Shown piece after piece: positions 22,904 through 38,899 of a DNA stretch of 64,000 nt (position 1 is its first letter; every line of letters begins with the position of its first letter). The stretch covers positions 65,876 to 129,875 of the forward strand of contig DAOUJW010000021.1 of NCBI GenBank assembly GCA_034422115.1. Reading direction: 5' to 3'. This DNA is from Dehalococcoidia bacterium (GTDB lineage: Bacteria > Chloroflexota > Dehalococcoidia > Lucifugimonadales > UBA2985). Under the pieces are notes generated by a model. That model was not told the DNA's origin and made no database searches. It saw nothing but the letters and a program-made list of their open reading frames with translations. The translations under genes were made by a program, and so were the position numbers.

Positions 22904-22979
22904 GCCCCTGTAGCTCAGGCGGATAGAGCATCGGTTTCCTAAACCGAGTGCCCCGGTTCGAGTCCGGGCAGGGGTACCA
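22904..22979 (+). tRNA. tRNA-Arg (anticodon CCT)
   Basis: Cloverleaf folded by hand: acceptor GCCCCTG/CAGGGGT, anticodon arm TCGGT-TTCCTAA-ACCGA, T arm CCCGG-TTCGAGT-CCGGG, encoded CCA. Confidence 0.9.
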
Positions 22980-23032
22980 TACTGAAAACAGGGACCGTCC
23001 CGGAGTATATTTCAGCAAGAGCAGAACGAGGT

Positions 23033-23329
23033 ATGCCTATGGCTAAGGAAGAGCGCAAACCCAGGCAGCTGCCGCGGCCCTTCGAGATGCACTGGGGCAA
23101 GGGGCAGATAGTGGAGGAGGCCACCTGTGTAGGGCAGTACCACGAGCCCGCCGTCCAGCTTCTGGAGTACGAAGACGGCGCGGAGTCCATACGGTTCTGC
23201 CACTACGATCTCAGGGGTCGGTTCCAGCGCAGCCCCCTGATGATCAGCGAGGATGTGATCGCAGAGCTGAGGGACTCGCTGGCCCAGGCACCTCGCCTTC
23301 GGGAGCTGCTGAAGAGACTGGTAGAGTAG
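23033..23329 (+). CDS. hypothetical protein (98 aa)
   Basis: ORF between tRNA-Arg and the tRNA-Trp cluster. No recognisable motif. Confidence 0.45.
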   Translation: MPMAKEERKPRQLPRPFEMHWGKGQIVEEATCVGQYHEPAVQLLEYEDGAESIRFCHYDLRGRFQRSPLMISEDVIAELRDSLAQAPRLRELLKRLVE

Positions 23330-23380
23330 GCATTACATCGGAATGCCGCCTGGGGATTTGGCCTGGAGCAGGTCCAGGGA

Positions 23381-23408
23381 TTCCACAAACTCCGCCTTAT
23401 GGTATACT
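23381..23408 (+). promoter_or_regulatory. candidate sigma-70 promoter for the tRNA Trp-Leu-Cys cluster
   Basis: TTCCAC (23381..23386), 16-nt spacer, TATACT (23403..23408), about 24 nt upstream of tRNA-Trp. Confidence 0.35.
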
Positions 23409-23431
23409 CTTTATCTGTCGTATTGGTGTGC

Positions 23432-23509
23432 AGGAGTGTAGCTCAGCCCGGTTAGAGCAACGGTCTCCAAAACCGTAGGTCGGGGGTTCGAATCCTCCCA
23501 CTCCTGCCA
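23432..23509 (+). tRNA. tRNA-Trp (anticodon CCA)
   Basis: Acceptor AGGAGTG/CACTCCT, anticodon arm ACGGT-CTCCAAA-ACCGT, T loop TTCGAAT, encoded CCA. Confidence 0.9.
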
Positions 23510-23533
23510 GAATCCCAGGACGCAAGAAGCCGT

Positions 23534-23620
23534 GCCGAGGTGGTGGAATTGGTAGACACGCGGTCTTGAGGGGGCCGTGGGCGTTAGCCCGTAGGAGTTC
23601 AAATCTCCTCCTCGGCACCA
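23534..23620 (+). tRNA. tRNA-Leu (anticodon GAG)
   Basis: Acceptor GCCGAGG/CCTCGGC, anticodon arm CGGTC-TTGAGGG-GGCCG, long variable arm, encoded CCA. Confidence 0.9.
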
Positions 23621-23643
23621 AAAACGTGGTAAAATAGCACAAG

Positions 23644-23719
23644 GGCGACGTAGCCAAGTGGTTAAGGCGGAGCTCTGCAAAAGCTCTATTCGGCGGTTCG
23701 AATCCGCCCGTCGCCTCCA
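23644..23719 (+). tRNA. tRNA-Cys (anticodon GCA)
   Basis: Acceptor GGCGACG/CGTCGCC, anticodon arm GAGCT-CTGCAAA-AGCTC, T arm GGCGG-TTCGAAT-CCGCC, encoded CCA. Confidence 0.9.
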
Positions 23720-23732
23720 AACATAAATTGCA

Positions 23733-23772
23733 AAAAGCAGAGCGGGGAAAAGCGCCCCTTCTGCTTTTTTAT
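23733..23772 (+). terminator. intrinsic terminator after the tRNA Trp-Leu-Cys cluster
   Basis: Hairpin AGCAGAGCGGGG-aaaagcg-CCCCTTCTGCT followed by TTTTTTATT. Confidence 0.75.
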
Positions 23773-23788
23773 TGAACCCTCCTGTTTT

Positions 23789-23871
23789 GCCCAGGTGGCG
23801 AAAGGGTAGACGCGGCGGACTTAAAATCCGCTCCCCGCAAGGGGGTGTGGGTTCGAATCCCTCCCTGGGCA
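23789..23871 (+). tRNA. tRNA-Leu (anticodon TAA), CCA not encoded
   Basis: Acceptor GCCCAGG/CCTGGGC, anticodon arm GCGGA-CTTAAAA-TCCGC, long variable arm. The 3' end reads A-CAG, so there is no genomic CCA. Confidence 0.85.
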
Positions 23872-23922
23872 CAGAACCCTTACCAGGTGTAACGGCTTGG
23901 CAAGACGGGATTGTGCCCCCGC

Positions 23923-26035: not shown

Positions 26036-27134
26036 ATGCAGGAACTCAGGGGACGCGCAGAGGAGCTTAGGGAGAGGATAGCACAGCTGCTGGAGCGTCT
26101 TTGACGTAGCCGGCAAAGAGGCGGAGATAACGCAGCTGGAGGCCCGGGCCGGTCGCCCGGAGTTCTGGGACGACCCCCAGGCCGCCCAGCCGCACATGAT
26201 TCGACTGGCGGAGATCAAGGACGTGGTGGACGCGTGGCGAGACTTGGAGAGCCGCGCGTCGTCGGCCTGCGACCTCATCGCACTGGCCCTTGAGGAGGAC
26301 GACACCAGCCTGGAGGAGTCCCTGTTCACAGACCTAGAGGCCATTTCCGAGGAGCTGAAGGACAGGGAGTTCCAGCTGACCCTCTCCGGCGAGTACGATA
26401 CCCGCAACGCCATCCTGGCCATCCACGCCGGGGCGGGCGGCACGGAGTCCCAGGACTGGGCGCAGATGCTCATGCGGATGTACCTGCGGTGGTCTGAGCG
26501 CAGGCGCTACAAGAACGAGCTGCTTGACGTGTCGCCGGGAGACGAGGCGGGAGTCAAGAGCGCAGTCATCAGCGTGGAAGGCAGGCACGCCTACGGCTAC
26601 CTGAAGGCCGAGGGCGGTACGCATCGGCTGGTGCGCCTGTCGCCCTTCGACTCCGCGCACATGAGGCATACGTCCTTTGCCCTGGTGGAGGTGCTGCCGG
26701 AAGCGGAGGAGCGGGTCGACGTCACCATCAACCCGGACGACCTTCGCATCGACGTATTCCGGGCCAGCGGCCACGGCGGACAGGCGGTGCAGAAGAACGC
26801 CACGGCCGTGCGCATAACCCACCTGCCGACGGGCATTGTGGTGAGCTGCCAGAACGAGCGCTCCCAGTTCCAGAACAAGGAGTTTGCGATGAAGGTGCTG
26901 CGGGCCAGGCTGATGGAGCTGGAGATGAAGCGTCAGGCGGAGGAGCAGGCCAGGCTCAAGGGCGAGCACGTCTCGGCGGAGTGGGGCAGCCAGATAAGGA
27001 GCTACGTACTGCACCCGTACAAGATGGTGAAGGACCACCGCACCAACCACGAGACCTCGGACCCCGGCGCAGTGCTGGACGGTGAGCTAGACGACTTCAT
27101 CCAGGCGTACCTGCTGGGGACTGTGGGGACGTAG
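26036..27134 (+). CDS. prfB: peptide chain release factor 2, requires +1 programmed frameshift at 26099..26105
   Basis: Frame-0 leader MQELRGRAEELRERIAQLLERL ends at CTT TGA C (TGA at 26102..26104), preceded by GGAG plus a 3-nt spacer. The +1 frame continues DVAGKEAEITQLE..., then SPF and GGQ (SGHGGQAVQK) to the stop at 27134. Confidence 0.93.
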
Positions 27135-27155: not shown

Positions 27156-27194
27156 CCCGCTGCTCAAATGGTTCGACAGGCTCACCATGAGCGG
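27156..27194. repeat. REP-like hairpin unit (family A)
   Basis: cccgctgctcaaatggttcgacaggctcaccatgagcgg, immediately after the prfB stop. Confidence 0.8.
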
Positions 27195-27204
27195 CGGGGG
27201 AGGG

Positions 27205-27927
27205 CTAAATTGACTTGGATGGCGCCGCGTCCTCAGAGTCCGGGGCGGCCTCCGCCTTGCCGATGGCCTCCAGCACCTTGTCGATGAAGGTCTCCTCCGG
27301 GACTGCGCCTATGAACTGGGTGGTCTCGTTGATGACCGTCTTGGGCACGCCCATGACCCGGTACTTCTGGGCAATCTGCGGGAACTCCTGCACCTCCACC
27401 ACGTCCGCCTTGACGCGGTCGTTCTCCATCGCCATCATTTGGGCCACACGGGCCACGGAGGGGCAGTGGGGTCAGGTGGGTGTCACAAACACCTGGATAT
27501 GGACGTCCTGGTCCACCAGTTGCAACTTCTTGCGAGTGTCCGCGCTGAGCGATGTCCTTGGCTTGGACAGCTTGATTGCGCTCTCAATTATGGTGACGAA
27601 CTCGTACCCCGACGGCATTCCGTAGTACTTGACGCTTGCGTCCTCGCCCCTGGTCACCACGATGGCTGGTATCCGCTCGACGCCGCTCTCACGGGCCGCC
27701 TGCCCCTGGCTGTAGAAGTCCACCGTCTCCAGCTCCAGCATAGGTGAGAGGGAGGTCAGCTCCTCCAGTATCTGCTGGGTCTGGGGGCAGGTGGCGCACT
27801 CCCGGCCGGGCACAAAAAGCTGTCCCGCAAGCTGGGAGGTGAAGAGCTTCAGGGTGATCTTGCGCTTCAGCTCCTTGCGAAATCGCTCCTCCAGGGTCTG
27901 GCGGTCCTGCGGTGAGATGATGGGCAT
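27205..27927 (-). CDS. two-domain glutaredoxin-like / protein-disulfide-oxidoreductase-like protein with in-frame UGA (candidate selenocysteine, U-P-H-C)
   Basis: ORFs 27472..27993 and 27205..27456 share one frame, interrupted only by TGA at 27472..27474. The junction reads VFVTPT-[TGA]-PHCPSVARVAQMM...EFPQIAQKYRVMGVPKTVIN. The first Trx unit has CATC. Start set at ATG 27927 (AAGGAG 7 nt upstream), because the longer ORF start lies inside a REP unit. Confidence 0.6.
27426..27469 (-). promoter_or_regulatory. candidate SECIS-like stem-loop downstream of the in-frame UGA
   Basis: Folded by hand. CCACUGCC (+3..+10) pairs with GGCGAUGG (+39..+46) with one C-A mismatch and one G-U pair. The apical hairpin is GGCC-CGUGU-GGCC (+18..+30). 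Confidence 0.3.
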
Positions 27928-27984
27928 TGGACGACTCCTTTGTCGTGGGCGGCGTAGGGTTATCTTACCATAAGGGTCTGTATT

Positions 27985-28077
27985 CCCGCTCATGGTGAGC
28001 TTGTCGAACCATTTGAGCGGGAAAAGAGCGGCCGTTGTCCCCGCTCATACCCTTCGACAGGCTCAGGGTGAGCGGGG
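27985..28077. repeat. REP-like hairpin pair (family A)
   Basis: Units at 27985..28021 (cccgctcatggtgagcttgtcgaaccatttgagcggg) and 28039..28077 (ccccgctcatacccttcgacaggctcagggtgagcgggg), with cores in inverted orientation. Confidence 0.9.
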
Positions 28078-30624: not shown

Positions 30625-32376
30625 TCACACCCTCGCGGCCACCGCCTCCTGGATGAGGCTGAGCACGTCATTTACGGGCCTTGCGCCCAGGTCCTGGCCG
30701 TCCCGCAGGCGCACCGCAACCGAGTCGGCCTCCATCTCCCGGTCGCCCACCACCAGCATGAAGGGCACCTTGTTCAGCTGGGCGTTGCGTATCTTGGCGT
30801 TCATACGCTCCGAGCGTCCGTCCACCTCCACCCGGATGTCCTGTGCCCGCAGCCTGTCCGACACCCCGTTGGCAAAGTCCAGGTGGCGGTCTGCTATGGG
30901 GATGACCACCACCTGCACGGGGGCCAGCCACGCGGGAAACGCCCCGGCGTAGTGCTCGATGAGGACGCCAAAGAAGCGCTCGATGGCTCCCAGCAGGGCG
31001 CGGTGCACCATGAAGGGTCGATGCTCGCGGCCGTCCTCGCCGATGTAGGTCACGTCGAACCGCTCCGGCAGGTTGAAGTCGAACTGGATGGTTGAGCACT
31101 GCCACTCGCGGCCCAGGGCGTCCAGCAGCTTCACGTCTATCTTGGGGCCGTAGAAGGCCGCGCCCCCGTCGTCCACGTCGTGGGGCAGGTTTCGCTCCAG
31201 GATGACCTCGCGCAGGACCTGGGTCGCCATGTCCCAGTCATCCACGGAGCCGGCGAACTTCCCGCTTTCGTTGCGAGTCGAGAGGTAGACGTGGAACTGC
31301 TGAAAGCCAAAGGCGTTCAGGAAGAACTGCATGAAGTCCACGCACCTGCCAATCTCCTCCTTCACCTGGTCAGGGCGGCAGAAGATGTGGGCGTCGTCCT
31401 GGGTGAAGCCGCGCACCCGCAGCAGGCCGTGCAGCACGCCCGACCGCTCGTAGCGGTACACCGTCCCCAGCTCCCCCAGGCGCATGGGCAGCTCCCGGTA
31501 GCTCCTGAGGCCGTTCTTGTAAATCTGCACGTGGAAGGGGCAGTTCATGGGCTTCACGTAGTAGTCCTGGCCGTCCACGTCCATGGGGGAGTACATGTTC
31601 TCGGCGTAGAAGTCCAGGTGGCCGCTGGTCTCCCAGAGGGTGGACTTGCCGACGTGGGGCGAATAGACCAGATCGTAGCCGGCGCGGTAGTGCTCCCTGC
31701 GCCAGAAGTCCTCGATGATGCCGCGCACGCGGCCGCCCTTTGGATGCCAGTAGACCAGCCCCGGGCCGTACTCCTCGTGGAACGACAGCAGGTCAAGCTC
31801 ACGGCCCAGCCTGCGATGGTCCCGGCGCTGGGCCTCCTCCAGGCGCTCCAGGTACTCCTCCAGCGCCTCGCCGGTCTCGAAGGCCGTGCCGTAGATGCGC
31901 TGAAGCATGGGGCGTTTCTCGTCGCCCCGCCAGTAGGCGCCGGCGATGCTCAGGAGCTTGCAAGCGCTTATGTGCGCTGTCGTGTCCACGTGAGGCCCAC
32001 GACACAAATCCACGAAGTCGCCGTGGCGGTAGACGCTGATGACCTCGTCGGTTGGCAGCTCTTCGATGATCTCCAGCTTGTAGGTCTGCTCTGCGAACAT
32101 CTCAAGGGCCTGCTCGCGGCTTATCTCCTGGTACACGAAGGGAAGGCCGCCGGCGATGGTCTCCCATATGCGCTCCTCAATGGCCTCCAGGTCCTCCGGG
32201 GTGAAGGCGCGGGACACCTCGAAGTCGTAGTAGAAGCCGTCCTCGGTGGGAGGCCCAATGCCCAGCTTGGCCTCCGGGAAGAGCTGGAGCACGGCGTCCG
32301 CCATCACGTGGGCGGCGGAGTGCCTCATGCGCTCGCGGAGGGAGTGGGTGTCCTGGTTGTGGTCAAGGGTGGTCAT
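30625..32376 (-). CDS. thrS: threonine--tRNA ligase lacking the N-terminal TGS domain
   Basis: Begins at the editing-domain motif RHSAAHVMADAV. Class II core (YRYERSGVLHGLLRVRGFTQDDAHIF) and a C-terminal anticodon-binding domain. 583 aa. Confidence 0.93.
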   Translation of the reverse strand: MTTLDHNQDTHSLRERMRHSAAHVMADAVLQLFPEAKLGIGPPTEDGFYYDFEVSRAFTPEDLEAIEERIWETIAGGLPFVYQEISREQALEMFAEQTYKLEIIEELPTDEVISVYRHGDFVDLCRGPHVDTTAHISACKLLSIAGAYWRGDEKRPMLQRIYGTAFETGEALEEYLERLEEAQRRDHRRLGRELDLLSFHEEYGPGLVYWHPKGGRVRGIIEDFWRREHYRAGYDLVYSPHVGKSTLWETSGHLDFYAENMYSPMDVDGQDYYVKPMNCPFHVQIYKNGLRSYRELPMRLGELGTVYRYERSGVLHGLLRVRGFTQDDAHIFCRPDQVKEEIGRCVDFMQFFLNAFGFQQFHVYLSTRNESGKFAGSVDDWDMATQVLREVILERNLPHDVDDGGAAFYGPKIDVKLLDALGREWQCSTIQFDFNLPERFDVTYIGEDGREHRPFMVHRALLGAIERFFGVLIEHYAGAFPAWLAPVQVVVIPIADRHLDFANGVSDRLRAQDIRVEVDGRSERMNAKIRNAQLNKVPFMLVVGDREMEADSVAVRLRDGQDLGARPVNDVLSLIQEAVAARV

Positions 32377-32436
32377 GGCTGTATCCAGGTAGCTAGTCTA
32401 CCCGCAAGGGCGCAAACTGGCAAGGCTGGGTGGGGC

Positions 32437-32916
32437 CTAGAGGCGCTTGTAATAGCGAACCAAGGGCAAGGGAGTGTAGCCCGCTTTCTCATACGATCTT
32501 CGGGCGGGCGCATGGGACTCATCGCCGCCAGTTCCTACCTCGACCATCACAACCCCAGCAGCTTGCATCTCCTCCAGAGCCCTCTTGTTCAACCCTGTAC
32601 CAATGCCGAGACTCTGGTAGTCGGGATGTACCGCCAGTAACTCCACCTCCCCGGTTTGGCCTCTGATCTGATAAGCCACAAACCCGACAACTTTTCCGTC
32701 TAGCTCGGCAACAAGGACGCTGGTATTCTCCCGATCCTTGCAAGAGGCTTCCACTCCTTCCCTTTGACTCTCACGCCAATCAGGATAGAGAAAGCTATAG
32801 ATTTTGGGTCCAAGTATTTGCTTGAAAGAGGCAAATACCGGTTCCCAGGCCAACAGTGACACCTCGACTATTTCGTCGAGGTCTTTATCATCAAATATTC
32901 GGACTTGCCAGCTCAT
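32437..32916 (-). CDS. GNAT-family N-acetyltransferase
   Basis: LAVHPDYQSLGIGTGLNKRALEEM acetyl-CoA-binding motif. 159 aa. AT-richer than thrS. Confidence 0.8.
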   Translation of the reverse strand: MSWQVRIFDDKDLDEIVEVSLLAWEPVFASFKQILGPKIYSFLYPDWRESQREGVEASCKDRENTSVLVAELDGKVVGFVAYQIRGQTGEVELLAVHPDYQSLGIGTGLNKRALEEMQAAGVVMVEVGTGGDESHAPARRSYEKAGYTPLPLVRYYKRL

Positions 32917-32948
32917 TTACTATCCTCACGAGCTTCTGCCCCGCAGAT

Positions 32949-34193
32949 TCAGGTTGTCTTGTCCTCAAACTGCCGCCGCACTTCACCCGTACCAACAAAC
33001 TGGGAGAGAAGCCGGTAGTTGCCTGACTCATAGCGGATGCGGCCGGCGACAATTGCCGGGTGGATCCGGGCTTGGGACGCCATCTGCATCACCTCCATTG
33101 GCCCGGCGTCCTCCAGTATCACGCCTCCCGCCCAAATCTCAGGCGGTATCAGAGCGTCCTGGGCGAGCTTATCAGCCTGTTCTTCTACTGAGCCTTTCTC
33201 TGTCCCGCGCAGTGAGTGGTCGTCGACAAAGCCCTCTTCATCTGCATCTCGGTCCAGGTGAAGTCCCACGTGGGCCAGCTCATGGAGTAGCGTATACCAG
33301 AAGTTGTCTATGCGGTCGTAGCGAAGGGTCAGGCCAATAACGGGTCTGCCGCCGGGCAGTCGCAGGGCTGCACCGTCCAGGTGTGTCCGGGGCAGGTGGC
33401 TCACGTACTCAAGACATATCCCTTGCTGAGCCAGATACTCCCTGGCCTGCACAGGGCCGTTCTCCATTACGCTCAACTGGGCCAGATGACGAAGAAGTTG
33501 AGGATTCACTGTGCCTGTATGGTACGCGACGGATGGCTCGTTCCGCCTGGCCTGTGCCAGCGCCTGCCAGCACCAGGCCCGGAGCGCGTAGTCGTCCGTC
33601 TTGGCGTTGACGCGCCGGTCGTCGTTCTTCCGATACAGGGGCTTGAGGGCAAGTTGAGGACCCACTGCCCGGTCCATCAGCCCTCTGATAAACTCTTCTG
33701 CGCGGTCTCTCAGATTGGCGACATTTGGGATCCATCCGGCATTCACCATGGCCTTTAGTGGAAACTTGCTCCACTCAATGTCCGGTATGTCGTCCGGGAT
33801 ACTTGCGCCCGGCTCTTGCAGCAGGACGTCGGCGGGTATGCCAAGGTGCTGGTGAAGGGCGCGAGCCATAGACATAGTGATGGGCCTCTTGCCCGAAAGC
33901 ACTTCAGAGACCCTGGCGGGGCTGCCTATGAACGGGACCAGGTCGCGACGAGTGAGTCCGGCCTGGTCCATGCGGAACTCAATGGCCGCAATTGCGGAAG
34001 GGAATCCCATGTCCACGGTCTTGGATTCGTAGACCTCAACAAGGTCGGACAGCACTTCCAGTTCGATTCTGCTGTGGTTGTTGGGGTCTTCAATCTGTCC
34101 ATCAGGACCCGAGAGTTCCTCCATAAGGTCCGCTATACGAGCCAAGGCCTCTTCGTAGTCCTCTTCGCTGCGAATCGGCCTGACGCTCACCAT
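32949..34193 (-). CDS. HigA-like HTH domain fused to ImmA/IrrE-family zinc metallopeptidase
   Basis: N-terminal antitoxin-like region with HTH (AGLTRRDLVPFIGSPARVSEVLSGKRPITMSMARAL). C-terminal HEXXH (LLHELAHVGLH). Lies 2 nt downstream of higB. Confidence 0.75.
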   Translation of the reverse strand: MVSVRPIRSEEDYEEALARIADLMEELSGPDGQIEDPNNHSRIELEVLSDLVEVYESKTVDMGFPSAIAAIEFRMDQAGLTRRDLVPFIGSPARVSEVLSGKRPITMSMARALHQHLGIPADVLLQEPGASIPDDIPDIEWSKFPLKAMVNAGWIPNVANLRDRAEEFIRGLMDRAVGPQLALKPLYRKNDDRRVNAKTDDYALRAWCWQALAQARRNEPSVAYHTGTVNPQLLRHLAQLSVMENGPVQAREYLAQQGICLEYVSHLPRTHLDGAALRLPGGRPVIGLTLRYDRIDNFWYTLLHELAHVGLHLDRDADEEGFVDDHSLRGTEKGSVEEQADKLAQDALIPPEIWAGGVILEDAGPMEVMQMASQARIHPAIVAGRIRYESGNYRLLSQFVGTGEVRRQFEDKTT

Positions 34194-34195
34194 GA

Positions 34196-34489
34196 TTACA
34201 CCTCCTCTGCATTGATGCGGTCATATTCAGCATGTGTGCCAATGAAGCGTACGTATACGATACCTCCTGGGTAGAATACGCTTACTACCAGCCGGTAGGC
34301 GCCGCCTTTGAGCCGGAAGACCACCCTATCTTTCCCGACTATGCTGGCAGTTGGGTGGAGCTCCTGAACTCTGGCCGGTGAGTCCCATTGCTCCCGGCTT
34401 GCCTGATCATGCCAAGCGCTGAGCGGCCCCTCTGCATCGGCATGAAGCTGCCAGAAATCGCGGAGAGTCCTCTTAGCAATGATTCTCAC
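34196..34489 (-). CDS. higB: HigB-family toxin (RelE/ParE superfamily mRNA interferase)
   Basis: MRIIAKRTLRDFW...VFRLKGGAYRLVVSVFYPGGIVYVRFIGTHAEYDRI is the typical HigB (PF09907-type) pattern. Confidence 0.75.
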   Translation of the reverse strand: MRIIAKRTLRDFWQLHADAEGPLSAWHDQASREQWDSPARVQELHPTASIVGKDRVVFRLKGGAYRLVVSVFYPGGIVYVRFIGTHAEYDRINAEEV

Positions 34490-34583
34490 AGGCGGACATG
34501 ACTCCTCCTTTTGGGTGCATTATACAACGCTCCCAAAAGAGATACAAGTAATGTAATCCCATAGTAAAGCGTCGCCGACTCTC

Positions 34584-34665
34584 CCCGCTCGTGGTGAGCC
34601 TGTCGAACCAGAGCGGGAGTGTCGACGACAGGCCACTCACCCTTCGACAAGCTCAGGATGAGCGG
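34584..34665. repeat. REP-like hairpin pair (family A)
   Basis: Units at 34584..34617 and 34633..34665. Confidence 0.85.
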
Positions 34666-34730
34666 ACGCCCCCACCCCTGGATGCCTGCCTACGCAGGCA
34701 TGGTTGCGTTGCGCGCCCCGCGCCCGCGGC

Positions 34731-34934
34731 CTACCCGCCTCCCGATACCCGGGGCCAGCGTCTCGGGTCCCTTGCCTCCGCGTGCGTGATGCTCTCCAGA
34801 GGCGCCCCGGGCTCCTGCTCAATGAGCTGGAGGAGGCCACACTCAGGGCACCAGGCGAGATAGACGTCCCCGCCTCGGATGCGCTGGACCACCGGCGCCG
34901 GGTCATCATCGCCGCATTGCCTAGTTGCGCTCAT
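34731..34934 (-). CDS. hypothetical small Cys-containing protein (67 aa)
   Basis: GGGAGAGG Shine-Dalgarno 4 nt upstream of the ATG. RQCGDD...WCPECG has only three Cys. Sits between REP units. The coding call is tentative. Confidence 0.3.
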   Translation of the reverse strand: MSATRQCGDDDPAPVVQRIRGGDVYLAWCPECGLLQLIEQEPGAPLESITHAEARDPRRWPRVSGGG

Positions 34935-35001
34935 TGGCCTCTCCCTCTCTTATGCTTGTCCTCACGCCACCAGCGCCACTCCTTCCCGCCCACTAGGTAT
35001 T

Positions 35002-35041
35002 CCCGCTCATCCTGAGCTTGTCGAAGGGTCTAACCGAGCGG
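35002..35041. repeat. REP-like hairpin unit (family A)
   Basis: cccgctcatcctgagcttgtcgaagggtctaaccgagcgg. Confidence 0.8.
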
Positions 35042-35087
35042 AGGGGGCCGCATTCCTGCAAGAGACCTCAACTTATTCAGAGGTTTC

Positions 35088-35792
35088 TTAGTTCTTGAGA
35101 AAGTCCTCCGGTTTCGGTCGGCGACCCCAATCTTGCTGGCTGAAAGGAACATAGCTTTCCGCCAACTGTTGACGCCACAGCCGGTCCGCCTCTTCGTACT
35201 GTCTTGTTGCTTTCAACTTCTCCGTTCTTTTGGGGTTGAGCTGGTGTACGTTTCCAACTTCAGTCTCGTTTGGGTCGAAGTGAGCGGTAGTATAAGCCAC
35301 TCTTTCGTGAACAGTCATTGTGTGGTCGTAAGGTGTCTGGACGTCCAGTACGTAAGCACTCTCCATGTCGCAGATGCAATACCAGCGATTCTCCTGATTG
35401 GGGTAAATGTGTTCATACCCCAAGAGAATCCTGATCGACAGACTTGTAGCATGAGAAGGGGTGCCGTGGATCGGATTGCGTCTTGGTGCTCGTATCCATT
35501 GCCTAATTCTCCTAAGCCGGTAATCACTTGGCTTTTCGTTCATATTGCGCGCTTTGAACATCCAAGGTCGTATAAATTTCGAAAGGCTATATCTGGCCTC
35601 CTCGTAGGACTCTCTAGAAGGAGACCAGAAGGCTGCGTGTACTAGGGCTACGACAGCGCAATCGCCTGTTGGCATCTCCGGTATGGTTCCTGTAGACTTC
35701 CATTCTTGCTCCAGAAACTCTGCCCTGCCACCGTCAGTCAATTGCTGGCTCAGATTCGCCAAACATTGCCGTGGATTAGTATGGACACTCAT
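35088..35792 (-). CDS. hypothetical protein (234 aa), AT-richer orphan; possible papain-fold Cys/His enzyme
   Basis: Long ORF in a clearly AT-richer block. Candidate nucleophile GDCAVVALVHAAF, later YDHTMTVHE and HFDPNE. Charged helical C-terminus. The fold assignment is speculative. Confidence 0.6.
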   Translation of the reverse strand: MSVHTNPRQCLANLSQQLTDGGRAEFLEQEWKSTGTIPEMPTGDCAVVALVHAAFWSPSRESYEEARYSLSKFIRPWMFKARNMNEKPSDYRLRRIRQWIRAPRRNPIHGTPSHATSLSIRILLGYEHIYPNQENRWYCICDMESAYVLDVQTPYDHTMTVHERVAYTTAHFDPNETEVGNVHQLNPKRTEKLKATRQYEEADRLWRQQLAESYVPFSQQDWGRRPKPEDFLKN

Positions 35793-35953
35793 CTATGGTT
35801 CCTCATTTCTCAAGAAGTGGTCGGGTGAATATGCCCAATATGCCATTCTCTTCCCTGTGGTCTCCGCTCATACATTCTAGCCGATTGTGTATGACCGTGA
35901 AAGTATGGGAGAGACCGTCACTCCCGAGAAGTCGGGAGTCCACACCCCACCAC

Positions 35954-35985
35954 CCCTGGATTCCCGTTTTCACGGGAATGACGGT
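35954..35985. repeat. short hairpin, family B (CTGGATTCCCG-N6-CGGGAATGACGG)
   Basis: Stem ATTCCCG/CGGGAAT at 35960..35979. Same flanks (CTGGATTCC...GGAATGACG) as the copies at 39261, 59681 and 61552. Confidence 0.75.
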
Positions 35986-35992
35986 GGCTCTC

Positions 35993-38899
35993 TTAGCTCA
36001 CAAATTCCGAGCCCCCCGGCCGCGCCTTCCCCCCATGCACCGACGGCTCTGCGCACCACTTGGCCGCCAGCCGCCTCACGCCTGCGTACGTCTCCTGGTC
36101 AAAGCCCAGGAGGTCACAGAGGACGCGGCGGTCCAGGAGGGCGCGGTTGGGGTCTGCGTCTGCGAGGTATGCGGGTTTCAGCTCCTTGCCACGGAACTCG
36201 TTGAAGATGGCCTCTGCTGTGTGCAGCTGCTCACTGGTGAGGGCGCGGAAGTCCAGCACGGGGAGGGAGTCCGCGGAGCTGACAGTCAGGCTTGCCTTAC
36301 TAGACTGCTGGCGACTGGAGTGCCACCAATGCAGCAATAAACCTAGTGTAGAGTTGCCCCACACTGAGAAGGCATAATCGAATCTTTTGTCCGAGAAGAT
36401 GACGTTGGGCCACACCCTCCCGCCTATGGATTCCATTTCCGTGAAGGCAACAGCCAGAGGTTGAGAGCCAAATGTGAAGTCTCGGTTCAAGTGAGTTCGG
36501 CTAGCAGTGTCCCAGGCATCGGCAGCCCTGTCTTCCATCCCTGGCCTGACAATCAACTGGAAGTCCGGCAGGCACACCATACGCGTTTCTTTCTTGGCAT
36601 TGTGGTTCCACAGGGCAGGATATGTAGAGGTTGGACTGGCCGCCGCTTTGGTAAAAGGCCCAGCTGAACCAGCGATGTTTATGTCATGCCACCCGCGTCT
36701 ACCTACATCACTCAAGACCGCTATCCTAAGTGGTTCTCCAGTGGAGCCTAAGCCCGGGAGCCACAAATTGGAACGTGACAAGGCATAAGCAGTCTGAGAC
36801 AAGGAATAATCCAACAGGCGCACAGCGCCCCAGCTTTCCCCGTCCACATCGCGGGGCGCAGTAATGGTCTCGCCAGCTGTTTCCTCTCCTACCATTAGAG
36901 GAGTCCCACCATACGGCCCACCCTCGATACCTCTAACTTGGCTAGCATCCAATAGGTTGGCTGTTAGTGAGCTTGCGTGGGCAAAACCTTGTGGTCTGCG
37001 CCGTAGCGACGTGAAGTGCGCCCAGTCTTGAGGTATTTCATCCTGTTTGAGCTTACGGGCAATAACAAGGCACTCAGCCATACCCGTGTCTGATGAAAAG
37101 GACATATCCCGTCCGTTGGCAGCTATGCTCAGTACCGTCACATCCGTATAGTGGTCGTCCATCATGTCACGGAATCCCTGCCAGGAAAGGCCATTGGCTA
37201 TGGACAGTGGAAGCACCAGGGCCAGTACGCCGCCAGGTTTGATCTTCTTGTGGGCAAGAGCGGCAAATGCGGAGGCTATGCCAGCATACCCGTGGTAGCA
37301 AGTATTCTTCGTGTACTTGCTCAGACTCTTTGCCATGTCCTTTTGCGTAACTAACCCTGTGCTCAATCCCCTGAAGTGTTTGATGTAGTCCTCGTCTCTG
37401 TCTTCGCCTTCCCAATCCGAACCCGGCCTGGTAAATGGAGGATTCATTATCACAAGGTCATAGGCCTCGTCCGGTACCTCCGCGCGTATCTGGGCCGCCG
37501 TCTCCTCACCCGCGCTGCCGGTGCGCATGGCCGGGTCGCTGGTGTTGAACAGGGTCAGCACGTTGGAGGACTGGAGAAGCTCCAGTGAGCCTATCATCAC
37601 GCTGCCGTCCCGCATCCGGCCGTAGGGCATGGTGTACAGGTGGGACTCGTTGAAGAGGACGGAGGGCTCCACGCCGGAGAGGGTTGAGCCTGTGATGTGG
37701 ACGGCGGAGGGCATGACGTCGCAGCCGTACAGCACGTCCTCCATCATCACCCTGTGGAGGGCGGCCGCGTCGCCCCCGGCGCGCTCGTGGCGGGCGGCTA
37801 TCTGCTCGTACACCGCCGAGAGCAGGGCGCCGGTGCCGCAGGCGAAGTCGCCGATTCGCAGCCCGCCAATCGCCTCCGCGCTCGACCAGTCGACGCCCTC
37901 CATCTTGGCCACGGCCAGCCGGGCCAGCAGCGCCGCCGAGGCCGGCAGGGTGTAGAAGGTGGCCAGGTACTTGCGGTCGGCTATGAGCCGCTGGAAGATG
38001 CGGCCGGTCAGGTCGTGGGCGTTGTCCACCCCCGCCGCATCCACGGCCTGGGCGGTGTGCCTGAGACGCCGCAGAATGTCCGCCGCATCGCCCGATGGCA
38101 GCTGCTCCAGAATGTCCTTGGCAATGGCAAAAATGGCCCAGTAGTTGATCCCCAGAATCGCATCCCAGGCCGCCAGCGTCTCCCCCTGGGGGTTGTCCAC
38201 GCCGTCGCCGCACACCACGGCCAGGGGCTTCACGCCCTCATGCCTCCCGGCAATGCGCTCATGGAACACCAGGGCGTTGGCGATGATGGCGCAGGCCATG
38301 CGGCGGGTCTGTGGCACGTTGGTCATGCCCAGCAGCCGGGCGATGGAGTTGGTGACGCCCCGATGGGTCTTGTCCAGCTCATCCAGGAGCCTTGCGGCGC
38401 CGTCGATGCCCTCCTGGAGAGCGGTGGTGGCCCTGGCGACTGCGCGCTGTGGGACCGACACGAGGCGCACCATGTCCGCCAGGTCCTCGATGCCGCCGTC
38501 CAGCCAGCCCGACTCCGGGAAGCGATGCGCGCCCTCCGCGCCCTCGGTGAAGACGCAGTAGGAGAGGCGCGCCGACGACAGCGCATCCCGGAGGTCGTGG
38601 GCGTCTCCCACGTCCTCCGGGTATCTCAGGGCAATGGCGGCCTCGATGGGCCGTCCGCCGGCGGCCACCTCCAGCCCAAGGCGGTCCATGGCCTCCCGCT
38701 CGACGGTCGGGGCGGGCATGTACTCCGCCTCGATGACCACGGGCGCGCGGCCCGGGGCGGTGATGAGGATGTCGGGGCGCAGGTTGGGCTGGTTGGCAAT
38801 GGCCTGGGTGTTCTCGGAGCGCACGACGCTGCGGGGCAGCATGGCCTGGAGCAGGCCGCCCATGGCGTTGTTGGCGGATGGCTCAGTGTGTCTGGGCAT
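35993..38899 (-). CDS. fused nuclease-like / gamma-class N6-adenine DNA methyltransferase / C-terminal specificity region (type IIG-like restriction-modification enzyme)
   Basis: N-terminal RPDILITAPGRAPVVIEAEY (PD...ExE, near-canonical PD-(D/E)xK). Motif I IGDFACGTGALL (about 37820..37849). Motif IV VIMNPPF (37433..37444). About 480 aa follow C-terminal to NPPF. 968 aa, with no separate S or R gene nearby. Confidence 0.65.
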   Translation of the reverse strand: MPRHTEPSANNAMGGLLQAMLPRSVVRSENTQAIANQPNLRPDILITAPGRAPVVIEAEYMPAPTVEREAMDRLGLEVAAGGRPIEAAIALRYPEDVGDAHDLRDALSSARLSYCVFTEGAEGAHRFPESGWLDGGIEDLADMVRLVSVPQRAVARATTALQEGIDGAARLLDELDKTHRGVTNSIARLLGMTNVPQTRRMACAIIANALVFHERIAGRHEGVKPLAVVCGDGVDNPQGETLAAWDAILGINYWAIFAIAKDILEQLPSGDAADILRRLRHTAQAVDAAGVDNAHDLTGRIFQRLIADRKYLATFYTLPASAALLARLAVAKMEGVDWSSAEAIGGLRIGDFACGTGALLSAVYEQIAARHERAGGDAAALHRVMMEDVLYGCDVMPSAVHITGSTLSGVEPSVLFNESHLYTMPYGRMRDGSVMIGSLELLQSSNVLTLFNTSDPAMRTGSAGEETAAQIRAEVPDEAYDLVIMNPPFTRPGSDWEGEDRDEDYIKHFRGLSTGLVTQKDMAKSLSKYTKNTCYHGYAGIASAFAALAHKKIKPGGVLALVLPLSIANGLSWQGFRDMMDDHYTDVTVLSIAANGRDMSFSSDTGMAECLVIARKLKQDEIPQDWAHFTSLRRRPQGFAHASSLTANLLDASQVRGIEGGPYGGTPLMVGEETAGETITAPRDVDGESWGAVRLLDYSLSQTAYALSRSNLWLPGLGSTGEPLRIAVLSDVGRRGWHDINIAGSAGPFTKAAASPTSTYPALWNHNAKKETRMVCLPDFQLIVRPGMEDRAADAWDTASRTHLNRDFTFGSQPLAVAFTEMESIGGRVWPNVIFSDKRFDYAFSVWGNSTLGLLLHWWHSSRQQSSKASLTVSSADSLPVLDFRALTSEQLHTAEAIFNEFRGKELKPAYLADADPNRALLDRRVLCDLLGFDQETYAGVRRLAAKWCAEPSVHGGKARPGGSEFVS

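What the first reader, a model, noticed from the sequence alone, without database searches (positions are those of the whole stretch)
27205..27927. In-frame UGA at the first Cys of the second CxxC of a glutaredoxin/PDO-like protein: candidate selenoprotein (U-P-H-C)
Two minus-strand ORFs (27472..27993 and 27205..27456) are in the same frame. They are separated only by TGA (27472..27474) and five sense codons.

Read through, the junction is ...HIQVFVTPT-[TGA]-PHCPSVARVAQMMAMENDRVKADVVEVQEFPQIAQKYRVMGVPKTVIN.... The TGA therefore occupies exactly the position of the N-terminal redox Cys in the family motif F-V-T-P-T-C-P-x-C-P. The first thioredoxin-fold unit keeps an ordinary CATC.

Neither fragment is a sensible protein alone. 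The upstream piece would stop after beta-1 of unit 2, and the downstream piece would lack its active site.

The mRNA just after the UGA can form a two-tier stem-loop. CCACUGCC (+3..+10) pairs with GGCGAUGG (+39..+46), and the apical hairpin is GGCC-CGUGU-GGCC (+18..+30). That geometry and distance are compatible with a bacterial SECIS.

Sec replacing Cys in the redox motifs of Trx-fold proteins is a known theme. This particular two-domain architecture would need to be checked against known selenoprotein families.
Basis: partly seen in the sequence, partly recalled or inferred. Interest (0 to 1): 0.85.

Follow-up and report, generated by a model that had tools for sequence, protein, structure and literature searches.

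The report
Selenocysteine protein disulfide oxidoreductase gene
The in-frame UGA is real and almost certainly encodes selenocysteine in a two-domain thioredoxin-fold disulfide oxidoreductase, but this selenoprotein family, with selenocysteine at this same position, is already catalogued, so the gene is an ordinary member that gene callers truncate.

Summary
One minus-strand gene (27927..27205) carries an in-frame TGA (27474..27472) at the first Cys of the second redox motif, giving F-V-T-P-T-U-P-H-C-P.

The joined protein matches NCBIfam TIGR02187.2 "PDO_seleno_TRX" at 249 bits against a cut-off of 185. It aligns full-length to solved Pyrococcus PDO structures.

The TGA is kept in 50 distinct sequences from Chloroflexota genomes and metagenomes, including clades only about 50% identical. 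About 40 of the 80 best species-level genomes have TGA, 36 have Cys and 4 have Asp or Ser. Downstream codons are under purifying selection (dN/dS 0.06-0.26).

A hairpin at +19..+34 fits the published bacterial SECIS model. It is fully paired in 45/50 TGA forms against 10/35 Cys forms, with compensatory changes.

Sec machinery could not be located in this genome. In eight other genomes with the TGA form, selB or a Sec-containing selD lies within 10 kb.

The parts
27205..27927 (-). Complete coding sequence of the selenocysteine-containing protein disulfide oxidoreductase: 240 residues including Sec152, plus the TAG stop at 27205..27207.
   Evidence: Reading frame. NCBIfam TIGR02187.2 at 249.2 bits against a cut-off of 185. 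Full-length match to PDB 1J08 and 1A8L at E about 1e-41.
27935..27940 (-). Shine-Dalgarno sequence AAGGAG, 7 nt upstream of the ATG at 27927.
   Evidence: Read directly from the sequence. The 151-aa ORFs called in relatives start at the same Met.
27787..27798 (-). Redox motif of the N-terminal thioredoxin-fold unit, C44-A-T-C47 (ordinary cysteines).
   Evidence: C44 and C47 are invariant in alignment A2.
27472..27474 (-). In-frame UGA, read as Sec152. It is the first residue of the C-unit redox motif U-P-H-C (27463..27474).
   Evidence: Aligns with the invariant Cys column and with the first Cys of CPYC in Pyrococcus PDO. TGA is kept in 50 distinct sequences.
27441..27456 (-). Apical hairpin of the SECIS element, +19..+34 from the U of UGA. 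It has the pair G19-C34, a bulged U20, the stem GGCC/GGCC and the loop C-G-U-G-U.
   Evidence: Fully paired in 45/50 Sec forms against 10/35 Cys forms. Cells paired: 95.3% against 70.3%. Pair 21-33 covaries as GC 34, CG 5, AU 3, GU 2. Codon choice is constrained. Meets the published bSECIS constraints. Same geometry as E. coli fdhF, shifted by one codon.
27426..27469 (-). The lower stem pairs +6..+13 with +42..+49. It is possible thermodynamically but has no comparative support.
   Evidence: The two-tier structure evaluates at -13.8 kcal/mol. The lower helix is paired in 65.4% of cells in Sec forms and 70.7% in Cys forms.

Best explanation
**What it is.** Window 27927..27205 (minus strand) is a single gene for a 240-residue protein disulfide oxidoreductase. 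The protein belongs to the PDO / AhpF-N-terminal-domain family and has two thioredoxin-fold units. Codon 152, UGA, is read as selenocysteine.

**How the recoding works (inferred).** While the ribosome sits on the UGA, SelB carrying Sec-tRNA(Sec) and GTP binds a small hairpin 16 nt downstream. The hairpin has the pair G19-C34, a bulged U20, a 4-bp GGCC/GGCC stem and a 5-nt loop with G26-U27. SelB delivers Sec in competition with RF2.

**What the protein does (inferred).** It carries a U-P-H-C motif in the C-terminal unit, in place of the usual C-P-Y-C, and an ordinary C-A-T-C in the N-terminal unit. The Sec sits at the exposed, attacking position. It forms a selenenylsulfide with Cys155 and should make the protein a faster disulfide reductase or isomerase. 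By analogy with archaeal PDO/TrxR and AhpF, a thioredoxin-reductase-type flavoprotein probably recycles it.

**Shown here.** The frame; family membership; the position of the UGA; its conservation; selection on the downstream codons; and a hairpin specific to the TGA forms.

**Not shown.** SelB dependence, actual selenium incorporation, the redox partner, and the Sec machinery of this particular genome.
For: **Family and position.**
- NCBIfam TIGR02187.2 'PDO_seleno_TRX': 249.2 bits against a cut-off of 185, covering residues 6-221.
- Full-length alignment to the solved structures 1J08, 1A8L, 2AYT and 2HLS. The UGA falls on the first Cys of FVTPTCPYCP.

**Conservation.**
- TGA is kept in seven species-level Dehalococcoidia genomes at 78-96% protein identity.
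- It is also kept in metagenome contigs, including a clade at about 50% identity with the motif T-U-P-Y-C-P.
- Among the 80 best species genomes, about 40 have TGA, 36 have TGC/TGT and 4 have Asp or Ser.
- On a rough NJ tree there are at least 16 state changes among the Sec, Cys and Asp/Ser forms.

**Translation continues past the UGA.**
- dN/dS for the 71 codons after the TGA is 0.06-0.26.
- The five codons P-H-C-P-S change synonymously, apart from one Ser to Thr.

**SECIS.**
- A full 4-bp stem occurs in 45/50 Sec forms against 10/35 Cys forms (Fisher p = 5e-9). Adding G26 and a GU in the loop gives 41/50 against 2/35 (p = 5e-13).
- Helix cells paired: 95.3% against 70.3%, with GC/CG/AU/GU covariation at pair 21-33.
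- Among sequences encoding A-R-x-A, the third base of codon 10 is G in 47/47 Sec forms against 7/15 Cys forms.
- Median ensemble probability of pair 22-32 is 0.62 against 0.0006.
- All four published bSECIS constraints are met.

**UGA is otherwise a stop in this genome.**
- 14 other ORFs in the window end in TGA.
- The adjacent prfB has the RF2 frameshift site CTT TGA C.

**Sec machinery in relatives that carry the TGA form.**
- selB lies within 10 kb of the gene in four loci.
- A selD with its own in-frame UGA (CAGUAAK) lies about 3 kb away in four loci from three genomes; two of the loci are both on OX638353.1.
- All 47 Dehalococcoidia/Chloroflexota SelD genes fetched are of the Sec type.

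**Literature.**
- The family is listed with a UxxC motif (PMC13188914; PMC1794560).
- Dehalococcoidia MAGs are reported with 46-49 selenoproteins (PMC13326102).
Against: - No tRNA-Sec, selA, selB or selD was found in the 64-kb window. None was found in 10 kb beyond its right end or in the syntenic region to its left in a close relative.
- A SelD-based genome scan did not return the seven closest genomes. That scan is pattern-limited, so this is not evidence of absence.
- The MFE fold of the 60 nt after the UGA is no better than shuffled sequence (z = -0.38). The apical hairpin alone is only -6.1 kcal/mol.
- 10 of 35 Cys forms can also form the 4-bp stem, because the peptide V/M-A-R-L/V-A in GC-rich codons tends to give GGCC...GGCC. 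The hairpin is therefore partly a by-product of coding.
- Rfam has no matching family.
- Reviews list the family as 'predicted with high confidence', not as experimentally verified.
Confidence: 0.93

Rival explanations
1. UGA readthrough without the Sec system. A near-cognate or suppressor tRNA would insert Trp, Cys or Arg at position 152, or UGA would be locally reassigned. The hairpin would only slow termination.
For: The Sec machinery was not located in this genome. The hairpin is short (-6.1 kcal/mol) and also occurs in some Cys forms.
Against: The UGA sits exactly on the catalytic Cys, in a family already catalogued as Sec/Cys at this site. The hairpin has the G-[G/U] loop signature and the spacing of the SelB-dependent bSECIS model. 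UGA is used as a stop, and prfB keeps its UGA frameshift site. Relatives with the TGA form have selB or a Sec-type selD next to the gene.
Confidence: 0.03
2. A split gene. Translation would stop at the UGA, giving a 151-residue N-terminal protein. The 83-residue C-terminal piece would be made separately from the GTG at 27456.
For: Gene callers produce exactly these two ORFs. A GTG lies five codons after the TGA.
Against: The five codons between the TGA and the GTG (P-H-C-P-S) are conserved at the protein level, with synonymous third-base changes (CCC/CCA, CAC/CAT, TGC/TGT, TCC/TCG/TCT). That is only expected if they are translated. In the second clade the GTG is replaced by GCG. The downstream piece would lack its active site and the first strand of its fold.
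Confidence: 0.02
3. A pseudogene or an assembly or sequencing error. The TGA would be a nonsense mutation or a miscalled TGC/TGT.
For: Some metagenome copies are frameshifted (L010, L012). One genome has TGA followed directly by TAG (L055).
Against: The same TGA appears in 50 distinct sequences from independent assemblies, including long-read complete chromosomes. There are no frameshifts or further stops, and dN/dS downstream is 0.06-0.26.
Confidence: 0.01

Closest known systems
[quoted passage not shown] The listed example is Carboxydothermus hydrogenoformans CHY_0740 / ABB15282.1 (PMC1794560, PMC1914089, PMC13188914). The NCBIfam model is TIGR02187.2 'PDO_seleno_TRX'.
   Same: Same curated HMM, passed well above its cut-off. 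Same two-unit thioredoxin-fold architecture. Same Sec position, the first residue of the UxxC motif. One Sec per protein. Cys-containing homologues exist alongside.
   Different: The lineage: Dehalococcoidia/Chloroflexota, rather than the Firmicutes, Actinobacteria and Asgard archaea named in the papers read here. The motif is U-P-H-C. I did not retrieve the CHY_0740 sequence, so the column identity rests on the family motif in the review, not on my own alignment.
Archaeal and Aquifex protein disulfide oxidoreductases with solved structures (P. furiosus 1A8L, P. horikoshii 1J08, A. aeolicus 2AYT/2YWM, A. pernix 2HLS).
   Same: Full-length homology at E 1e-41 to 1e-26. Two thioredoxin-fold units. 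A CxxC in each unit. The FVTPTCPYCP motif in the C-terminal unit.
   Different: Those proteins have Cys where this one has UGA. Their redox partners (thioredoxin reductase) are known from biochemistry. No partner was identified here.
E. coli fdhF SECIS, the reference bacterial selenocysteine insertion sequence.
   Same: A hairpin directly downstream of the UGA, inside the coding sequence. A single bulged U on the 5' side, then 4 bp, then a small loop with G-U at loop positions 2-3. In E. coli these are U17 and G23 U24; here they are U20 and G26 U27, exactly one codon further from the UGA. Which residues matter for SelB binding is from established knowledge, not tested here.
   Different: The loop is 5 nt rather than 4. 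The stem is GGCC/GGCC. The long lower helix of fdhF has no supported counterpart here.
Sec-containing thioredoxin and glutaredoxin (UxxC; experimentally verified selenoprotein families, PMC13188914 Table 1).
   Same: Thioredoxin fold, with Sec at the N-terminal attacking position of the redox motif.
   Different: Those are single-domain proteins in different families (PF00085, PF00462). Here there is a two-unit PDO architecture, and the best single-domain Pfam hit is Thioredoxin_3.

Membership tests
PDO / AhpF-N-terminal-domain selenoprotein family (NCBIfam TIGR02187.2 PDO_seleno_TRX) | Whole-protein score above the curated equivalog cut-off. | tested here: met
   249.2 bits against a cut-off of 185. 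Residues 6-221 match profile positions 2-209 of 209.
PDO / AhpF-N-terminal-domain selenoprotein family (NCBIfam TIGR02187.2 PDO_seleno_TRX) | Two tandem thioredoxin-fold units in one polypeptide of about 230 residues. | tested here: met
   End-to-end sequence alignment to the solved PDOs 1J08 and 1A8L (residues 4-222 against 4-225). Pfam Thioredoxin_3 hits in two stretches. No structure was predicted here.
PDO / AhpF-N-terminal-domain selenoprotein family (NCBIfam TIGR02187.2 PDO_seleno_TRX) | Redox motif CxxC or UxxC in the C-terminal unit, with Sec, when present, as its first residue. | tested here: met
   The motif U152-P-H-C155 aligns with the invariant C152/C155 columns and with CPYC of Pyrococcus PDO. 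The review lists UxxC for this family.
Bacterial selenoprotein gene (SelB/SECIS-dependent UGA recoding) | An in-frame UGA aligned with Cys in homologues (a Sec/Cys pair). | tested here: met
   35 distinct Cys forms and 50 TGA forms share the same column.
Bacterial selenoprotein gene (SelB/SECIS-dependent UGA recoding) | The UGA and the downstream frame are conserved across species under purifying selection. | tested here: met
   dN/dS downstream is 0.06-0.26.
Bacterial selenoprotein gene (SelB/SECIS-dependent UGA recoding) | The bSECIS consensus, as quoted in PMC13188914 Fig. 2: a 3-9 nt apical loop; a 4-16 bp upper stem; G in the first two loop positions, usually followed by G or U; 16-37 nt between the UGA and the loop; free energy at or below -7.5 kcal/mol. 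| tested here: met
   The loop CGUGU is 5 nt. The stem is 4 bp, plus G19-C34 across a bulge. G26 is followed by U27. The spacing is 21 nt. The two-tier structure evaluates at -13.8 kcal/mol, but the apical hairpin alone is -6.1 kcal/mol. The hairpin is enriched and covaries in TGA forms. bSECISearch itself was not available.
Bacterial selenoprotein gene (SelB/SECIS-dependent UGA recoding) | selA, selB, selD and tRNA-Sec present in the same genome. | not testable with these tools
   None were found in the window or the reachable flanks. Indirect evidence only: selB, or a selD that itself has an in-frame UGA, lies within 10 kb of the TGA-form gene at eight loci from seven other Chloroflexota genomes. 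Selenoprotein-rich Dehalococcoidia are reported in PMC13326102.
Bacterial selenoprotein gene (SelB/SECIS-dependent UGA recoding) | Selenium shown in the protein (75Se labelling or mass spectrometry). | not testable with these tools
   This needs an experiment. The review lists the family as predicted with high confidence, not as verified.

The most novel reading that the evidence does not exclude
The gene itself is ordinary, but the comparative picture may not have been described. In Chloroflexota, about half of the sampled species-level genomes carry the Sec form of PDO. A rough tree shows at least 16 state changes among the Sec, Cys and Asp/Ser forms. The SECIS is a minimal fdhF-like hairpin that lies over the conserved peptide V/M-A-R-L/V-A. 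In GC-rich codons, 10 of 35 Cys forms already form the stem. This coding-imposed 'proto-SECIS' could explain why the site flips so easily between Cys and Sec. It would make PDO a natural system for studying how SECIS elements arise and decay.
Probability: 0.25. Interest if true: 0.35.

Novelty: already known. Interest (0 to 1): 0.15.

Why it matters
- **Annotation.** Gene callers split this gene into a 151-aa and an 83-aa ORF. Public records of the closest relatives hold only the truncated 151-aa product. Recognising the UGA as Sec restores a complete redox enzyme and marks the organism as a selenium user.
- **Biology.** It adds one more instance to a family that reviews and a curated NCBIfam model already list as a selenoprotein. 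A specialist would not be surprised.
- **Modest wider value.** The Sec form appears very common in Chloroflexota. The TGA-specific hairpin is a clean comparative example of a minimal bacterial SECIS.

Tried and rejected
- **Rfam.** Gathering threshold on the whole window, and E up to 10 on 27300-27600, gave only tRNAs and no SECIS-like family.
- **Single-sequence folding.** The MFE structure differs from the proposed one and is no better than shuffles (z = -0.38). Single-sequence thermodynamics does not decide the question; the comparative test does.
Rejected as a selected structure: 65% paired in Sec forms against 71% in Cys forms.
- **Other recoded genes in the window.** I scanned all TGA-joined same-frame ORF pairs for coding-like GC3 on both sides. 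Only this gene qualifies. Two other GGCC-N5-GGCC sites are not preceded by an in-frame TGA.
- **Sec machinery of this genome.**
  - ARAGORN and Rfam on the window.
  - Extension 10 kb to the right on the source contig, and the syntenic left region in relatives (two look-ups failed on start-codon choice).
  - tRNA scan of the held loci.
  - tblastn with E. coli SelA/SelB/SelD over 1.57 Mb around PDO genes and 1.50 Mb around SelD genes.
  - A genome scan with a Dehalococcoidia SelD.
- Result: machinery found next to the TGA form in other genomes, but not for the window's own clade.
- **BSepDB supplements.** Not held as text.
- **A functional link to the adjacent prfB.** Rejected: prfB-PDO synteny also occurs with Cys forms.
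- **One pattern search** failed on syntax.

Full report
**1. The observation**

On the minus strand, an ATG at 27927 is preceded by AAGGAG at 27940..27935. It opens 151 sense codons that end at TGA 27474..27472. The same frame continues for 88 further sense codons to TAG 27207..27205. Five of these (P-H-C-P-S) precede the GTG at 27456 that ORF finders use as a start.

The first unit carries C-A-T-C (27798..27787). No other pair of TGA-joined ORFs in the window looks coding on both sides.

**2. What the protein is**

With Cys placed at the TGA, the 240-residue product was scanned against the family libraries.

- It scores 249.2 bits against NCBIfam TIGR02187.2, cut-off 185, over the whole profile. 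That model is named "PDO_seleno_TRX, protein disulfide oxidoreductase".
- Pfam gives Thioredoxin_3 in two stretches.
- It aligns end to end with the solved PDOs of Pyrococcus horikoshii and P. furiosus (1J08, 1A8L; E about 1e-41). It also matches those of Aquifex and Aeropyrum, and more weakly the N-terminal domain of AhpF.
- In those alignments the TGA lies on the first Cys of FVTPTCPYCP, the active site of the C-terminal unit.
- In a 15-sequence family alignment that column is an invariant Cys.

**3. Conservation of the UGA**

The closest database proteins, at 80-100% identity, are all 151-152 residues long. They stop at the same place. Full-length homologues of about 244 residues appear only at 59% identity or less.

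- DNA from seven species-level Dehalococcoidia genomes (78-96% protein identity) has TGA at the site and an intact, conserved frame after it. An eighth genome, at 55% identity, has TGC.
- Metagenome contigs add a second clade, only about 50% identical, with T-[TGA]-P-Y-C-P.
- A family-wide genome scan kept the best 80 of at least 567 loci. About 40 have TGA, 36 have TGC/TGT and 4 have Asp or Ser. Most are Dehalococcoidia, with some Ktedonobacteria, Thermomicrobia and Chloroflexia.
- On a rough neighbour-joining tree the forms are interleaved, with at least 16 state changes.

Against the window, dN/dS for the 71 codons after the TGA is 0.06-0.26. The five codons between the TGA and the GTG vary almost only at synonymous positions (CCC/CCA, CAC/CAT, TGC/TGT, TCC/TCG/TCT).

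This excludes a pseudogene, a sequencing error and a split gene that re-initiates at the GTG. In the second clade that GTG is GCG.

**4. UGA is otherwise a stop**

In my ORF set for the window, 14 other ORFs end in TGA. The convergent neighbour is prfB. It carries the classical RF2 frameshift site CTT TGA C at 26099..26105. A general reassignment of UGA is therefore not the explanation.

**5. The SECIS**

Positions are counted with the U of UGA as +1. In window coordinates it is 27456..27441.

Single-sequence folding does not single it out. The MFE structure is a different one, with z = -0.38. The comparative test is decisive.

| Measure | TGA forms | Cys forms | Statistic |
|---|---|---|---|
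| Full 4-bp stem | 45/50 | 10/35 | Fisher p = 5e-9 |
| Stem plus G26 and a GU in the loop | 41/50 | 2/35 | p = 5e-13 |
| Apical helix, cells paired | 95.3% | 70.3% | |
| Codon 10 ends in G (A-R-x-A sequences only) | 47/47 | 7/15 | |
| Median ensemble probability of pair 22-32 | 0.62 | 0.0006 | Mann-Whitney p = 5e-9 |

- Pair 21-33 in TGA forms is GC in 34, CG in 5, AU in 3 and GU in 2 sequences. These are compensatory changes.
- Among sequences encoding A-R-x-A, Ala8 is GCC in 47/47 TGA forms. Arg9 is never CGC in TGA forms, but is CGC in 5/15 Cys forms.
- The element meets the published bSECIS constraints (quoting PMC13188914). The loop is 5 nt. The stem is at least 4 bp. G at loop position 2 is followed by U or G. 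Twenty-one nt separate the UGA from the loop.
- The two-tier structure evaluates at -13.8 kcal/mol. The hairpin alone is -6.1 kcal/mol.
- The geometry copies the E. coli fdhF SECIS, shifted by one codon. The bulged U is at 20 against 17, followed by four pairs, and the loop G-U is at 26-27 against 23-24.

It is best explained by conserved coding sequence.

Two caveats apply. The sequences are related, so the p-values overstate independence, although the many Sec/Cys switches mitigate this. And some Cys forms already have the stem, because the peptide V/M-A-R-L/V-A in GC-rich codons tends to give GGCC...GGCC.

**6. Sec machinery**

The window has five ordinary tRNAs and no tRNA-Sec. It has no SelA, SelB or SelD; the only SelD-like hit is ThiL.

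The window comes from ENA ERZ23495174, scaffold_410, 150,520 nt. Ten kb beyond its right end holds no sel genes, and neither does the syntenic region to its left in a 96%-identical relative.

I fetched 10-kb flanks around 80 PDO genes and searched them with E. coli SelA, SelB and SelD.

- selB lies within 10 kb in four loci.
- selD lies about 3 kb away in four loci from three genomes; two of the loci are both on OX638353.1.
- All eight loci carry the TGA form.
- Those selD genes themselves contain an in-frame UGA (LSHCAG-U-AAKIS), the known Sec form of SelD.

A last genome scan with that SelD returned 47 Dehalococcoidia/Chloroflexota SelD genes. All are of the Sec type, and one has selB beside it. 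The scan did not return the window's seven closest genomes. It depends on shared exact 8-mers, so this says little either way.

BSepDB reports Dehalococcoidia MAGs with 46-49 selenoproteins, one of them with the same UUID-style isolate name as the closest relatives found here (PMC13326102).

The machinery in this particular genome therefore remains inferred.

**7. Comparison with what is known**

- Zhang et al. [quoted passage not shown]
- Fujita et al. 2007 list the same Carboxydothermus gene, CHY_0740, as "glutaredoxin-like, TGA" (PMC1914089).
[quoted passage not shown] It also notes the family in Asgard archaea (PMC13188914).

The window's gene passes the family's curated model and has the same motif and Sec position. 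It is a member of a known selenoprotein family, not a new architecture.

**8. Mechanism**

Shown here: one reading frame; family membership; the UGA on the attacking Cys; and a hairpin specific to the TGA forms at SECIS distance.

Inferred from established knowledge of bacterial Sec decoding and of PDO/AhpF chemistry:

- SelB with Sec-tRNA(Sec) binds the hairpin and decodes the UGA in competition with RF2.
- Sec152 attacks substrate disulfides and forms a selenenylsulfide with Cys155.
- A thioredoxin-reductase-type enzyme recycles the motif.

No redox partner gene is adjacent. The neighbours are prfB, an MFS transporter, an AAA_33 kinase-like gene and thrS. The prfB-PDO neighbourhood also occurs with Cys forms, so it carries no functional meaning.

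**9. Verdict**

The lower half of the proposed stem-loop is not supported. The Sec machinery of this genome is still unchecked.

The kind is already known and curated, so interest is low (0.15). The only mildly new material is comparative. It covers the high frequency of the Sec form in Chloroflexota, the repeated switching between Sec and Cys, and a minimal SECIS that sits on a coding-imposed proto-hairpin.

Noticed in passing
window 26036-27134 (+): prfB (release factor 2) has the classical programmed +1 frameshift. The ATG at 26036 opens 22 codons, then CTT TGA C at 26099-26105. The +1 frame continues to 27134. The gene converges on the selenoprotein gene with a 70-nt gap. The same neighbourhood occurs in relatives with Cys forms, so it is not linked to Sec.
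   Followed up: yes
window 27162-27194, 27986-28018, 28043-28075, and 14 further sites (e.g. 17908, 29545, 34585, 40247, 61648): A REP-like palindromic element of about 33 nt (core TTCGACARGCTCASNNTGAGCGG) occurs 17 times in the window, against 0 expected. It often occurs in inverted pairs in intergenic regions. One 97%-complementary inverted pair brackets the selenoprotein gene.
   Followed up: partly
L141 13848-14933 (-); likewise L145, L146, L179: In other Dehalococcoidia, a selD gene with its own in-frame UGA (LSHCAG-U-AAKIS) lies about 3 kb from the Sec form of the PDO gene. ribH, thiG and thiE lie between them. All 47 Dehalococcoidia/Chloroflexota SelD genes fetched (L184-L227, L239, L240, L259) are of the Sec type.
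   Followed up: partly
L068 851-904 (compare L040, L045): A Cys form (TPNCGYCP) keeps the full SECIS-like hairpin GGCC-AGGUU-GGCC. It nests among TGA forms with nearly the same protein, which looks like a recent Sec-to-Cys replacement.
   Followed up: partly
L085, L087, L089, L092 (active-site codon near position 851): Four SAR202/Dehalococcoidia homologues have Asp or Ser in place of the first Cys/Sec of the C-unit motif (TPSDTDCP, TPASADCP, TPTDTYCP, TPTDPDCP). They keep only the second Cys.
   Followed up: no
L055 854-859; L010; L012: L055 has TGA followed directly by TAG, where relatives have CAG. L010 and L012 are frameshifted copies from metagenome contigs. These may be decayed genes or assembly errors.
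   Followed up: no
window 32000-37000 (ORFs 32949-34193, 35088-35792, 35993-38899, all on the minus strand): A stretch of lower G+C (0.51-0.61 against 0.62-0.66 around it) holds ORFs with no NCBIfam match. The 968-aa ORF has a weak, sub-threshold Pfam hit to the Eco57I restriction-modification methylase. REP-like elements lie at 34585-35025. It may be an acquired restriction-modification island.
   Followed up: partly
window 22904-23872 (+): A cluster of five tRNA genes: Arg-CCT, Trp-CCA, Leu-GAG, Cys-GCA and Leu-TAA. None is tRNA-Sec.
   Followed up: yes
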